Assembly: GCA_965261345.1 (NCBI GenBank)
Contig: OZ253449.1
Coordinates: 960,001 to 1,024,000 of the forward strand
From: Chloroflexota bacterium
Lineage (GTDB): Bacteria > Chloroflexota > UBA11872 > VXNJ01
Direction: 5' to 3'
DNA length: 64,000 bases
Shown: positions 46,840 to 51,055 of the stretch, piece by piece
Layout of the letters: the number at the start of each line of letters is the position of its first letter
Numbering within the stretch: the stretch's first letter is position 1
The notes under the pieces: model-generated
Told to the model about the DNA's origin: nothing
The model's input: the letters and a program-made list of their open reading frames with translations, nothing else
Databases searched by the model: none
Program-made: the position numbers and the translations under genes

Positions 46840-47148
46840 ATGATCCCAAGAGGAGTTCAACAGCTTAGCGAAGCGGCCAAAATCGCCGGCGATTTGGCAA
46901 GTTCCAACGTCGATCAGGCGCTGATTGAGCGGCTTTCGCGCCTAAAAGCTGCGCTTGAGAAAATTGCGGGCGCTCCCCTGGCCCGAAGCGGCTTGGCAGT
47001 ACCGCTGACGGCCCCGATTAACCGCAACGCCAAGAAGCTCCAGCAATGTAGCGGTGACAGCTTCAGCGCCGCCCTGGACTCCCTCGAAAAGGTTGTGGCC
47101 AATTTCGAAAAACGGGCCGGTGGCGCTGGCAACATCGCCATTACCTAA
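46840..47148 (+). CDS. Hypothetical protein
   Basis: 102-aa ORF between the DUF362 gene and the terminator. Confidence 0.6.
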   Translation: MIPRGVQQLSEAAKIAGDLASSNVDQALIERLSRLKAALEKIAGAPLARSGLAVPLTAPINRNAKKLQQCSGDSFSAALDSLEKVVANFEKRAGGAGNIAIT

Positions 47149-47181
47149 ACGGCGGTCGGCAGTCGTAACCAAGCGGACCCG

Positions 47182-47220
47182 AAACCGCCCGTGCCTTTCG
47201 GCACGGGCGGTTTTTCCTTT
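47182..47220 (+). terminator. Intrinsic terminator
   Basis: AAACCGCCCGTGCC-TTTC-GGCACGGGCGGTTT perfect stem plus T-rich tail. Confidence 0.85.
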
Positions 47221-47321
47221 CGTCCGACATCCAATTTCGCCATTGGCACGCCTCCCCCACCCCTCCCCTTTTTTTCGACACCCCGGACCACACCCCACCC
47301 CAATCACCGTCAAGAGCTCCC

Positions 47322-47356
47322 TTGGGGACCCCTCGTTAAACGTATATAATTGCGGG
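47322..47356 (+). promoter_or_regulatory. Sigma70-type rRNA promoter
   Basis: TTGGGG-17 bp-TATAAT (47345-47350) then GC-rich discriminator. Confidence 0.7.
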
Positions 47357-47547
47357 CTCTTGCGAACAAGTCTGGCCTTTCATTTGGTTCCGCTTTTTTC
47401 AGAGCAGAACCTTCGACAACTGAAGAGCAGCCGAATTGATAAATTTTCTCAATGTCAATTCATAGCGAATTAGGTCTGCAGAGTTTCAGGATGTAAAAGC
47501 GCTTCATTTAAATTGTTTAAACATCCTCGGAGACGAGGATTTTTTCT

Positions 47548-49048
<1,501 letters not shown>

Positions 49049-49217
49049 AGTGCTTGGCAGAAATGCCGGGCGATCCCAGTCAAGCTTCCTAAACTCTGTT
49101 TCAACGCTTAATTTGCTAACGAAGCGTAAATGAAATTGACGCACATTGGGATTTGATATCTCGGCTGCTACTTCAGATGTCGAAGGTTTGACCCTTTACA
49201 AGTGAATATGGATGTGC

Positions 49218-49495
49218 CGAGCCGGTCGGGTTGTCGCGCTTAGCGCGAGGAAAGTCCGCACTCCGCAGGGCAGGATAGCGGGTAACGCCCGTCCGCCGTG
49301 AGGCGAGGACCAGTGGAACAGAGACCAATGCCGGATAATGCCGGAGTGAAAAGGCCAAACTCTATTCGGAGCAAGCCCAAGCAGGGATGATGACGCGGCC
49401 CGCCGAGTCCCAGGTAGGGTGCAAGGAATCATCGGGTAACCGGTGATCAAGATAGATGGCAACCGATTACAGAATGCGGCTTATAGACCGGCTCG
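49218..49495 (+). ncRNA. rnpB: RNase P RNA, compact form
   Basis: P1 CGAGCCGGTC/GACCGGCTCG; GAGGAAAGTCC; ACAGAGA; GTGAAA; GGAGCAAG; ACAGAATGCGGCTTA. Confidence 0.97.
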
Positions 49496-49513
49496 AATAA
49501 TCCATATTCAGCA

Positions 49514-49588
49514 TGCGGGGTGGAGCAGTGGCAGCTCGTCGGGCTCATAACCCGGAGGTCGTCGGTTCGAATCCGACCCCCGCAACCA
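49514..49588 (+). tRNA. tRNA-Met(CAT), initiator type
   Basis: Cloverleaf, GGG/CCC anticodon stem, A11-U24, encoded CCA. Confidence 0.95.
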
Positions 49589-49930
49589 ATAGTGAACGTT
49601 TCTCGCTTAGCATCCTCTAAGCGATGAATCGTAACTGAAATACGCGCGTTCGCAAATCGATCGCTAACAACGAGCATTCGCCTTTTTAAGTGCCTCCATC
49701 GGGTGCCCGCTTCGATCAAAATTACGGGCCAAACAGGCAGTGGATACGGCGAGCATTCGGATTTCCAATCGCTAACATAAACAGGATGCGCAGCGTGCAG
49801 TTCCAAATATTGGGTTTGTGCGATTTAGCCGCAATTGTTTCTCATCGAAGCGCTGATCGATTCGAGCGCACCTGGGTTGATACGCCAGGCGTACGTTGGA
49901 CGATCCGCAATACAGAAATGTTGGTATGTA

Positions 49931-51055
49931 ATGGGCTCTGATTTCAGCAGCGAAATCGAGCTCCAATCCGGCTTGACCTCCAACGCCGAAAAGAGCGTTT
50001 CGCCCAAAGAATTGCCCGACGGGCAGTGTGATCTTGGCAAACGAATCGACCCAGCTAACAAGCGGCTGCTCAACTGCCTGCGGGTTGATGTCAACCAGCT
50101 GATCCCGCTCAAATACCGGTGGGCCTGGGAGCATTACCTTAACGGGTGCGCCAACCACTGGATGCCCAATGAGGTTTCGATGCAACGGGACATTGAACTG
50201 TGGCGGTCCGATCGCCTAAGCGATGCTGAACGCTTGGTAATCAAGCGAAATTTGGGATTTTTCAGCACCGGCGAGTCGCTGGTCGGCAACAACATCGTGC
50301 TCTCGATCTTTAAGCACATCACCAATTCCGAAGCTCGTCAATACCTGTTAAGGCAGGCATTCGAAGAAGCGCTGCATACCCACTCATTCGTTCACATAGT
50401 GGATTCACTCGGGCTCGATTCGCGCGAGGTATTCAACATGTACCGCGAGGTCGACTCAATCCAGGGTAAAGACGACTTTGTGATGAGCCTTACTCAGGAT
50501 GTGATGGATCCGACATTTAGCACCGATTCGCCCTCCGGCATTCAGCGCTTCATAAAGAACCTGGTCGGCTTCTATGTGGTGATGGAGGGGATCTTCTTCT
50601 ATTCAGGTTTCGTAATGATCCTCTCGTTTCATCGCCGAAACCAGATGACCGGTGTCGGCGAGCAGTTCCAGTACATCATGCGTGATGAAACGATCCACCT
50701 AAATTTCGGGATAGATCTTATAAACACCATCCATGAGGAAAACCCCGAAGCGTGGACGGGTGAACTCGAGAAGGAAATCATCGAGTTGATCAAGGAAGCG
50801 GTGGAGTACGAAGTGGCCTACGCCCACGATTGCCTTCCCTCTGGCGTGCTGGGCCTCAATGCCGACCTGTTCCGCGATTATGTCGAGCACATTGCCGACC
50901 GCCGACTAGAGCGAATCGGCCTCCCGGCCCAATTTGGATCGAAGAATCCATTCCCCTGGATGAGCGAAGTTGTCGACATCCCCAAAGAGAAGAATTTCTT
51001 CGAGACGCGGGTGACCGAATATTCGAGCGCCGGAACGTTGTCCTGGGACGAATGA
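49931..51055 (+). CDS. nrdB: Ribonucleotide reductase beta subunit, class Ic (R2c)
   Basis: [46 protein letters not shown]. Confidence 0.93.

What the first reader, a model, noticed from the sequence alone, without database searches (positions are those of the whole stretch)
49218..49495. Minimal 278-nt RNase P RNA lacking P13, P14 and P19
Manual folding: tiny P3 (CGCGC-TTA-GCGCG) and P12 (CCGG-ATAATG-CCGG). GTGAAA runs directly into GGCCAAACTC, so P13/P14 are absent; there is no P19 and no P10.1. P6, P15-P17 with the L15 GGU, and P18 (ATCATCGG-GTAA-CCGGTGAT) are retained. Known: bacterial type A RNAs are typically about 350-400 nt, and type C (Thermomicrobium) loses P13/14 but also P6/16/17 and gains P10.1. 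Inference: an intermediate or separate reduced subtype near the lower size limit.
Basis: partly seen in the sequence, partly recalled or inferred. Interest (0 to 1): 0.7.

Follow-up and report, generated by a model that had tools for sequence, protein, structure and literature searches.

The report
Minimal RNase P RNA lacking P13/P14
This is a real but unusually small (278-nt) bacterial RNase P ribozyme gene that lacks two peripheral helices; the same stripped-down form is the norm in its whole Chloroflexota lineage, and the gene sits between the 16S rRNA and the initiator tRNA genes.

Summary
Window 49218-49495(+) is a full-length bacterial type A RNase P RNA (Rfam RF00010, 192.3 bits, E 1.2e-60). 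It is the only rnpB in a one-contig 2.39-Mb genome that also encodes an ordinary 114-aa RnpA and no HARP. P13/P14 are absent: 43 model positions align to 0 nt. P3 (3-5 bp) and P12 (4 bp) are tiny, and there is no P19, P10.1 or P15.1. P4, P6, P15-P17 with the L15 GGU, and P18 are kept. The fold is backed by covariation in 33 relatives (96.4% of cells paired, 48 of 81 pairs compensatory).

It is not a one-off. All six families of its class and several other Chloroflexota lineages lack P13/P14, while other members of the phylum keep them. Bacterial RNAs without P13/P14 are already in print (type C; CPR). So this is the small end of a clade-wide reduced variant, not a new class.

The more unusual point is gene order. 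16S rRNA, rnpB and initiator tRNA lie in tandem on one strand, conserved across the class, with complementary flanks around P1. Co-transcription and self-made 3'-end processing are inferred, not shown.

The parts
47548..49042 (+). 16S rRNA gene, full length, 175 nt upstream of rnpB on the same strand. The only 23S found is about 360 kb away on the other strand.
   Evidence: RF00177, 1515.3 bits, model 1-1533. 23S at G000:C1:642962-646043(-).
49204..49213 (+). 5' arm (GAAUAUGGAU) of a 10-bp helix that flanks P1. It is a candidate processing stem.
   Evidence: Read from the sequence. Present in the MFE fold of 49190-49525, z -3.46. Relatives keep complementary flanks with different sequence.
49218..49495 (+). 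RNase P RNA (rnpB), 278 nt from the first to the last nucleotide of P1.
   Evidence: RF00010, 192.3 bits, E 1.2e-60. Single copy in the genome. Covariation.
49237..49247 (+). Minimal P3: 3 bp with a 5-nt loop. The alternative is 5 bp with a UUA loop, starting at 49235.
49252..49260 (+). 5' strand of P4 with the bulged U (49255). It pairs with 49475-49482.
   Evidence: 8 pairs, 100% paired in 33 sequences, one of them covarying (GC 27, CG 6).
49331..49344 (+). Minimal P12: CCGG-AUAAUG-CCGG.
   Evidence: 84.8% of cells paired on the MAFFT alignment.
49346..49362 (+). GUGAAA (J12/13 of type A) running directly into the 3' strands of P11 and P10. This is where P13/P14 are missing.
   Evidence: Model gap of 43 positions against 0 nt. 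The same junction occurs in 33 of 33 aligned relatives.
49375..49420 (+). P15-P16-P17 with the L15 GGU (49413-49415). The loop of P17 forms P6 (49398-49401) with 49268-49271.
   Evidence: P15 100%, P16 96.4%, P6 97.0% of cells paired; P6 covaries GC to AU.
49428..49447 (+). P18: 8 bp capped by a GUAA (GNRA) tetraloop.
   Evidence: 8 of 8 pairs show changes on both sides.
49500..49509 (+). 3' arm (AUCCAUAUUC) of the flanking helix.
49514..49588 (+). tRNA-Met (CAU) of initiator type, with GGG/CCC in the anticodon stem and an encoded CCA. It starts 18 nt after the last nucleotide of P1.
   Evidence: ARAGORN and RF00005 at 67.5 bits. Of the three CAU tRNAs in the genome it is the one with the initiator features (that these features mark initiators is my knowledge).

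Best explanation
The element is the organism's one working RNase P RNA. It is a type A ribozyme whose catalytic domain is complete: P1-P5, P15-P18, the P4 and P6 pseudoknots and the L15 GGU that pairs with the tRNA 3'-CCA. Its specificity domain is cut down to P7-P12 without the P13/P14 layer.

It most likely works as other bacterial RNase P enzymes do. [quoted passage not shown] The L18-P8, L8-P4 and L9-P1 contacts (all loops present) hold the two domains together.

The P13/P14-less form was inherited, not invented here. It is shared by the whole class and by several other Chloroflexota lineages. Genus g1 is the small extreme because P3, P9 and P12 are also minimal.

The gene lies in a stable-RNA cluster: 16S rRNA, rnpB, initiator tRNA. 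I infer that it is transcribed with its neighbours, released through the helix formed by its flanks, and that RNase P itself sets the 3' boundary by cutting at the 5' end of the adjacent tRNA.

Shown: identity, architecture, conservation, single copy, gene order. Inferred: activity, co-transcription, processing route.
For: Identity and architecture:
- RF00010 over the full model, 192.3 bits.
- Covariation in 33 sequences: 96.4% of cells paired, 48 of 81 pairs compensatory, 0 of 500 shuffles as high, 32.5-42.6% when slid.

Sole enzyme:
- One rnpB in a one-contig genome rated 95% complete.
- One rnpA (114 aa, PF00825 positions 5-108 of 109) in an rpmH-rnpA-yidD-yidC row.
- No PIN_5/HARP match and no type B match at E <= 10.
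- 31 of 48 tRNA genes encode CCA, which fits the retained GGU.

Clade-wide:
- Rfam spans of 282-300 nt in f1, 310-346 in f2, 298-299 in f4, 304 in f3, 325-331 in f6 and 332-413 in f5.
- The direct GUGAAA-to-P11 junction occurs in 33 of 33 aligned RNAs, in the families sampled (f7, f15, f37, f48 and others), and in at least 120 Chloroflexota-titled records.

Gene order:
- 16S lies upstream on the same strand in 19 of 20 class loci. The twentieth (L009) is cut by its contig end.
- tRNA-Met(CAU) lies downstream in 24 of the 25 f1-f4, f6 and f7 loci scanned: within about 130 nt in 21, 1.0-1.2 kb away in L013, L026 and L031, and not found in L012.
- In f3 the order is 16S-rnpB-tRNA-23S; in f7 it is 16S-5S-rnpB-4 tRNAs.
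- The flanks pair in relatives with different sequences. RNase III is encoded.

Expression hint:
- Contigs of four RNA libraries from two studies cover 49205-49493, 49207-49543, 49232-49460 and 49287-49444 at 1-10 differences.
Against: - No activity, structure probing or end mapping exists for this RNA.
- The RNA-library evidence is assembled contigs only. They cannot show ends, strand or level, and DNA carry-over is not excluded. The one contig that runs into the tRNA has 30 nt there, one short of the tool's 31-nt bridging rule.
- The simple promoter scan found no sigma-70-like site anywhere in 47000-50200. It therefore neither supports nor excludes a separate rnpB promoter.
- In archaea, loss of P13/P14 goes with extra proteins that bind the S-domain. 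No such compensator was looked for beyond RnpA, whose size is ordinary.
- In family f5, 16S is adjacent in only 2 of 5 loci and the downstream tRNA is Glu. In twelve more distant Chloroflexota loci (five titled Limnocylindria, -ales or -us) the P13/P14-less rnpB has no 16S or tRNA beside it in the stretch held. The linkage is therefore not tied to the reduced structure.
- The single-sequence MFE fold recovers only part of the comparative structure.
Confidence: 0.8

Rival explanations
1. It belongs to the described Chloroflexi type C (Thermomicrobium type) and needs no new label.
For: - The phylum is the same: every one of the 80 pattern-scan rows shown is a Chloroflexota lineage by its title.
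- Table 3 of PMC2858038 gives type C as lacking P13, P14 and P19 while keeping P6, P16, P17 and P18. This RNA shows exactly that pattern.
Against: - The same table lists P10.1 and P15.1 as present in type C.
- Here only 3 nt lie between the 5' strands of P10 and P11, and P15/P16 are joined by plain 5-nt internal-loop strands.
- P Finder lists type C RNAs of 350 and 365 nt.
- I could not obtain a named Thermomicrobium sequence or the original description, so no direct alignment was made.
Confidence: 0.15
2. It is a separate, newly arisen reduced subtype peculiar to this organism or genus.
For: Genus g1 has the shortest RNAs seen, with Rfam spans of 282-283 nt. P3 and P12 are at their minimum there.
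Against: - The defining loss (P13/P14) is shared by all six families of the class, by f7, and by Limnocylindria-titled and Thermoflexus-titled records.
- Lengths run continuously from 282 to 413 nt. The differences lie only in the variable helices P3, P9, P12 and P19.
Confidence: 0.03
3. It is a decaying or non-essential RNA, and tRNA 5' ends are made by another enzyme.
For: It lacks a structural layer that supports the S-domain in studied type A RNAs (PMC8457005, passage seen).
Against: - Every universally conserved segment is intact and covaries.
- rnpA is present. No HARP/PIN_5 match and no second rnpB.
- RNA-library contigs cover it.
Confidence: 0.02

Closest known systems
Bacterial type A RNase P RNA (Rfam RF00010; E. 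coli and Thermotoga maritima types)
   Same: It is the best-matching family and aligns over the full model. P1-P12, P15-P18, the P4 and P6 pseudoknots, the L15 GGU, the GNRA loops L9 and L18 and the partner protein RnpA are all present.
   Different: There is no P13/P14 layer, and P3 and P12 are reduced to 3-5 and 4 bp. It is 278 nt, against an average of 374 nt for A-type RNAs (PMC7191817) or a typical 340-420 nt (PMC4919922). Its score of 192 bits compares with roughly 270-330 bits for P13/P14-bearing RNAs of the same phylum.
Type C RNase P RNA (Thermomicrobium roseum, Sphaerobacter)
   Same: It is from Chloroflexota. It lacks P13, P14 and P19 and keeps P6, P16, P17 and P18 (PMC2858038 Table 3).
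   Different: Type C is listed with P10.1 and P15.1 and measures 350-365 nt. Neither helix is present here.
Archaeal type A RNase P RNA (Rfam RF00373)
   Same: The S-domain lacks P13/P14 (PMC4919922). The archaeal model aligns over its full length (1-288) at 101.7 bits, above its gathering score of 84. Only 4 of the 14 control genomes pass that cut-off; the output does not say which, and four of those listed are archaea.
   Different: This RNA keeps P18 and the bacterial consensus, scores far higher on the bacterial model (192.3 bits), and has a bacterial RnpA rather than the multi-protein archaeal set.
Reduced RNase P RNAs of CPR bacteria (Lui et al. 2021, PMC8172020)
   Same: These are bacterial RNAs described as often missing P13 and P14. 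The authors call this 'not unusual' (passage seen).
   Different: The CPR RNAs often also lack P16/P17, P18 or the CCA-binding motif and fall below Rfam thresholds. This one keeps all of these and scores well above the threshold.
Mycoplasma minimal RNase P RNAs (type B)
   Same: Similar size. A 288-nt type B gene is listed for Mycoplasma conjunctivae (PMC7191817). M. fermentans at 276 nt is recalled, because the paper was not held.
   Different: Those are type B (P10.1, P5.1, P15.1; no P6, P16 or P17). M. fermentans lacks P12 (PMC8172020). The type B model finds nothing in this genome.
rnpB inside an rRNA operon: Methanococcus maripaludis rrnC (16S-tRNAAla-23S-5S-rnpB)
   Same: The RNase P RNA is encoded in an rRNA operon and released from the polycistronic precursor. 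A terminal stem was proposed to guide end formation (PMC10515664, passages seen).
   Different: That case is an archaeon, with rnpB at the operon's 3' end after 5S. Here rnpB directly follows 16S and precedes the initiator tRNA. In one family (f3) it lies inside the 16S-23S spacer. My searches found no bacterial case in print.

Membership tests
Bacterial RNase P RNA, type A (RF00010) | Score above the curated threshold over the full covariance model | tested here: met
   192.3 bits against a gathering score of 100, model 1-367, E 1.2e-60.
Bacterial RNase P RNA, type A (RF00010) | Catalytic core: P4 pseudoknot with bulged U, J3/4 GAGGAAAG, J18/2 and J2/4 consensus | tested here: met
   P4 has 8 pairs, 100% paired in 33 sequences. 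The conserved stretches align with posterior-probability marks of 9 or '*'.
Bacterial RNase P RNA, type A (RF00010) | P6/P15/P16/P17 module with the L15 GGU | tested here: met
   GGU at 49413-49415.
Bacterial RNase P RNA, type A (RF00010) | P13/P14 in the S-domain (used to tell type A from type B in PMC1874661) | tested here: not met
   43 model positions align to 0 nt. The same holds in 33 of 33 relatives. It is therefore a P13/P14-less variant of the family, not a canonical member.
Bacterial RNase P RNA, type A (RF00010) | Catalytic activity on pre-tRNA with RnpA | not testable with these tools
   Needs a bench assay. The rnpA gene is present.
Type C (Thermomicrobium type) | Loss of P13/P14 with P6, P16, P17 and P18 kept | tested here: met
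   Definition taken from PMC2858038 Table 3.
Type C (Thermomicrobium type) | Presence of P10.1 | tested here: not met
   Only 3 nt (CCA, 49310-49312) lie between the 5' strands of P10 and P11.
Type C (Thermomicrobium type) | Presence of P15.1 | tested here: not met
   P15 and P16 are joined by 5-nt strands only.
Type B (RF00011) | Match to the type B covariance model | tested here: not met
   No match at E <= 10 in the whole genome; 24 candidates were scored.
Archaeal RNase P RNA (RF00373) | Score above the curated threshold | tested here: met
   101.7 bits against 84. The bacterial model scores 90 bits more, and within the Rfam clan the bacterial match is the one kept.
Archaeal RNase P RNA (RF00373) | Absence of P18, and archaeal protein partners | tested here: not met
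   P18 is present and covaries. The partner is a bacterial RnpA. Archaeal proteins were not searched for.

The most novel reading that the evidence does not exclude
A whole class of Chloroflexota runs on a naturally minimal bacterial RNase P whose S-domain has the archaeal layout (no P13/P14) but which has only the single bacterial protein. Its RNA is made as part of the 16S rRNA transcript. It is excised through a stem formed by its flanks and trimmed at its 3' side by RNase P itself when the enzyme cuts the adjoining initiator tRNA. This would couple production of the ribozyme, the small ribosomal subunit RNA and the initiator tRNA in one unit.
Probability: 0.4. Interest if true: 0.55.

Novelty: new variant of a known kind. 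Interest (0 to 1): 0.38.

Why it matters
If the 278-nt RNA is active with RnpA alone, it gives RNase P biochemists a natural minimal type A scaffold. It would show how far the specificity domain can be pared down in a bacterium without the extra proteins that archaea use. It comes with graded natural relatives (278 to about 410 nt) and P13/P14-bearing cousins in the same phylum for comparison.

For annotation, RNAs lacking P13/P14 score about 100 bits lower than canonical ones, and some Chloroflexota RNase P RNAs fall below the Rfam threshold.

The conserved 16S-rnpB-initiator tRNA order adds a bacterial example to the one archaeal rRNA operon known to carry rnpB. It offers a simple system to ask how a ribozyme is cut out of an rRNA precursor.

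Tried and rejected
- The primary descriptions of type C (Haas & Brown 1998) and of the M. fermentans RNA (Siegel et al. 1996) are not held. Type C features come second-hand from PMC2858038. The 276-nt figure is recalled. Supplementary files were not consulted.
- The promoter/terminator scan of 47000-50200 found 0 promoter-like sites (1.7 expected from shuffles) and 4 terminator-like sites (3.8 expected). It is uninformative.
- Read laying: no RNA-library contig covers 49072-49173 (the 16S-rnpB spacer) or 49616-49800. Contig data cannot be read as absence, so this says nothing about co-transcription with 16S.
- The single-sequence MFE fold (z -2.35) recovers P1, P8, P12, P16 and P18 but not P2, the P5/P7 strands or the pseudoknots. 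It was not used as evidence for the structure.
The pattern was written from this lineage's own sequences. It gives a lower bound within Chloroflexota and says nothing about other phyla.
- Of 18 pattern-scan loci given to Rfam, 17 gave an RF00010 match above threshold; L163 gave none.
- My regex check for P13/P14 parsed 24 of 30 top-scoring phylum loci, and all 24 have both helices. Six were not parsed and are left unclassified.
- I did not build a covariance model of my own (a model of this length would likely exceed the calibration limit), did not build a tree, and did not map ancestral states.
- RnpA was examined for an extension that might compensate for the missing helices. None was found: 114 aa, covering the profile end to end.

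Full report
**What is at the coordinates**

An Rfam scan of the whole window gives three adjacent matches on the + strand:
- 16S rRNA at 47548-49042 (1515.3 bits).
- RNaseP_bact_a (RF00010) at 49218-49499: 192.3 bits against a gathering score of 100, E 1.2e-60, model positions 1-367.
- A tRNA at 49514-49585. ARAGORN calls it tRNA-Met(CAU), 49514-49588.

The RNase P alignment places no nucleotides opposite the 43 model positions that lie between the conserved GUGAAA and the 3' strand of P11. That stretch is P13/P14. It also deletes 12 positions at P19.

**Secondary structure**

I wrote out the helices from the Rfam alignment and the sequence:
- P1 (11 bp) and P2 (7 bp).
- P3 (3 bp).
- P4 (8 bp with bulged U49255).
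- P5, P6 (GGGC/GCCC) and P7.
- P8 and P9 (GUGA loop).
- P10/P11 and P12 (CCGG-AUAAUG-CCGG).
- P15, P16 and P17.
- P18 (8 bp, GUAA loop).

The L15 GGU is at 49413-49415. There is no room for P10.1 (3 nt between the 5' strands of P10 and P11) or for P15.1.

I tested this structure on an alignment of 33 RNAs from seven families:
- 96.4% of 2658 cells are standard pairs, against 32.5-42.6% when the 3' partners are slid by 1-3 columns.
- 48 of 81 pairs have changes on both sides.
- None of 500 shuffles reaches the observed value on any of the five measures.
- The weakest helices are P17 (two isolated pairs, 42% and 73% paired) and P12 (84.8%). Both lie in poorly aligned variable regions.

The 3-bp register is possible in 15 of 15. 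The 3-bp register is also the one homologous to the long P3 of families f2, f5 and f6 and to a 3-bp P3 with a UUCG loop in f7. It leaves the invariant C18-G pair of P2 intact.

**Is it the working enzyme?**

The window lies in a one-contig genome of 2,393,548 bases, rated 95.4% complete. The evidence that this is the sole RNase P:
- One RF00010 match in the whole genome.
- No match to the type B model at E <= 10.
- No PIN_5 family match. That HARP belongs to this family is recalled.
- One rnpA. The rnpA reading frame from its internal ATG is 114 aa and covers Pfam Ribonuclease_P positions 5-108 of 109. It sits in an rpmH-rnpA-yidD-yidC row, so the protein has no extension.
- 31 of 48 tRNA genes encode CCA, in keeping with the retained GGU.

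The archaeal model RF00373 aligns to the same RNA over its full length at 101.7 bits, above its own threshold of 84. Only 4 of the 14 control genomes reach that level. This is a numerical expression of the archaeal-like S-domain. The bacterial model still wins by 90 bits.

**How widespread is the form?**

Rfam spans, which include 4 nt beyond P1, by family:

| Family | Span (nt) |
|---|---|
| f1 | 282-300 |
| f2 | 310-346 |
| f3 | 304 |
| f4 | 298-299 |
| f6 | 325-331 |
| f5 | 332-413 |

- Among 41 relatives, 35 have a match. In the class, 76 of 84 genomes have a match.
- All 33 aligned RNAs run GUGAAA(A/C)G straight into the P11 3' strand. The length differences sit in P3, P9, P12 and, in two f5 RNAs, P19.
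- In a sample of 151 genomes of the phylum, 143 have a match. This tally includes the unpublished G111 as one row.
- The 30 best-scoring phylum loci are 348-415 nt. In the 24 that my regex could parse, P13 (GG..GGUAAGAGC..CC) and P14 are present, with 58-60 nt where the window has 16.
- Other families lack P13/P14 like the window. These are f7 (286-297 nt, same architecture), f15 (which also appears to lack P18), f37, f48 and a group of about 290-320 nt. Four low-scoring families keep P13/P14 but diverge in the P4 region.
All 80 rows shown are Chloroflexota by their titles, which read Chloroflexi/Chloroflexota/Chloroflexia, Limnocylindria/Limnocylindrales/Limnocylindrus, Anaerolinea(ceae) or Thermoflexus hugenholtzii MAGs.
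- A Thermoflexus-titled record carries the 413-nt f5 form, and a Limnocylindrus-titled record the f48 form.

The loss is therefore old and shared, and genus g1 is the short extreme.

**What is in print**

- Type C (Thermomicrobium) is tabulated as lacking P13, P14 and P19, keeping P6, P16, P17 and P18, and having P10.1 and P15.1 (PMC2858038, passages and Table 3 seen).
- P Finder lists type C genes of 350 and 365 nt and a mean A-type length of 374 nt (PMC7191817, passages).
- Archaeal type A RNAs lack P13/P14 and P18 (PMC4919922, passage).
- P13/P14 and P18 form the smaller helical layer that stabilises the stretched type A fold (PMC8457005, passage).
- I found no paper joining RNase P with Chloroflexota or Thermoflexus beyond these.
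- The original type C paper could not be read.

**Surroundings**

The 16S gene ends 175 nt before rnpB. The tRNA starts 18 nt after P1. The only 23S is about 360 kb away on the other strand. Protein genes on either side are unrelated: a 2-oxoacid dehydrogenase E2 and a DUF362 protein upstream, and a ribonucleotide reductase small chain and a luciferase-like monooxygenase downstream.

The order 16S-rnpB-tRNA on one strand recurs widely:
- 16S is upstream in 19 of 20 class loci scanned. The twentieth is cut off 206 nt upstream of rnpB by its contig end.
- The downstream tRNA is Met(CAU) in 24 of the 25 f1-f4, f6 and f7 loci scanned. It lies within about 130 nt in 21 of them and 1.0-1.2 kb away in L013, L026 and L031. 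None was found in L012.
- In f3 the row continues into 23S, so rnpB and the tRNA lie inside the 16S-23S spacer.
- In f7 a 5S gene stands between 16S and rnpB, and four tRNAs follow.
- In f5 the downstream tRNA is Glu in 5 of 5 loci, and 16S is adjacent in 2 of 5.
- In twelve more distant Chloroflexota loci (L103, L105, L106, L107, L109, L112, L117, L122, L123, L139, L144, L175; five of them titled Limnocylindria, -ales or -us) rnpB has neither neighbour in the stretch held, which in some reaches only a few hundred bases to one side.

The tRNA has the initiator hallmarks, GGG/CCC in the anticodon stem and close likeness to the E. coli initiator (my knowledge). It is the only such gene among the three CAU tRNAs of the genome.

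**Flanking helix and expression**

GAAUAUGGAU (49204-49213) and AUCCAUAUUC (49500-49509) are perfectly complementary and extend P1 after a 4-nt gap on each side. Relatives have complementary flanks of different sequence: UUGAGAU/AUCUCAA in G002, AGCGU/ACGCU abutting P1 in g8, and GCCGC/GCGGC in g7. An RNase III homologue is encoded.

In four metatranscriptome runs from two studies, assembled contigs of a near-identical relative cover 49205-49493, 49207-49543, 49232-49460 and 49287-49444. These are contigs, so they show presence in RNA libraries but not ends, strand or a single transcript.

An archaeal precedent exists for rnpB in an rRNA operon: Methanococcus maripaludis rrnC, 16S-tRNAAla-23S-5S-rnpB, with a terminal stem proposed to guide processing (PMC10515664, passages). 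Two searches found no bacterial case.

**Verdict**

This is a functional-looking, clade-wide, P13/P14-less variant of type A. It is closest to type C but lacks type C's extra helices, and it sits at the small end of a continuum. The structural reduction is only moderately surprising given type C and the CPR RNAs. The conserved placement between 16S rRNA and the initiator tRNA is the less expected feature, and it remains to be tested at the RNA level.

Noticed in passing
window 47548-49588; loci L003-L037, L223-L230: 16S rRNA, rnpB and tRNA-Met(CAU) lie in tandem on one strand. The order is conserved in families f1-f4, f6 and f7. The 23S of this genome is about 360 kb away, so the 16S is unlinked from 23S but linked to rnpB.
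   Followed up: yes
L228 (G041, family f3) 1-2539: In this relative the order is 16S, rnpB, tRNA-Met, 23S. rnpB therefore sits inside the 16S-23S spacer.
   Followed up: partly
L229 and L230 (G100 and G088, family f7): The order here is 16S, 5S, rnpB, then tRNA-Met, Val, Tyr and Asp. The tRNA-Met starts only 7 nt after the last nucleotide of P1.
   Followed up: partly
window 49514 and 49585: In genus g1 the initiator-type tRNA begins with U, which can pair with A72. Relatives in other genera have the usual C1 opposite A72.
   Followed up: no
window 47870-47905 and about 47993: The 16S rRNA departs from the bacterial consensus in the normally invariant stretch around E. coli positions 340-360 (CCUACGGGGUUUAGCAUGAAGGAAU). 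It also lacks a 17-nt hairpin tip in the V3 region (alignment). Common 341F-type primers would mismatch (my knowledge).
   Followed up: no
G054:C192:1190-1486 and 1577-1891: One relative (family f2) has two RF00010 matches 90 nt apart on the same strand of one contig (116.7 and 173.5 bits). This may be a tandem duplicate or an assembly artefact.
   Followed up: no
L096, L098, L099, L100 (families f21, f41, f16, f49): Some Chloroflexota RNase P RNAs keep P13/P14 but have GAGGAACUUCC in place of GAGGAAAGUCC at P4. They score only 64-117 bits, many below the Rfam threshold. Family f32 gives only partial matches to model positions 111-207. This agrees with the partial Bcheck predictions for Roseiflexus and Chloroflexus (PMC2996960).
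   Followed up: no
window 47523-47540: A 7-bp hairpin followed by a T-run lies 8 nt before the 16S 5' end. Its role (terminator of the upstream gene or leader structure) is unknown.
   Followed up: no
L032 1946-2034 and L037 1949-2040 (minus strand): ARAGORN calls long 'tRNA-Arg(tct)' and 'tRNA-Pyl(cta)' genes that overlap the 3' end of 16S and the 16S-rnpB spacer in family f4. Rfam's tRNA model does not match there, so they are probably false calls.
   Followed up: no
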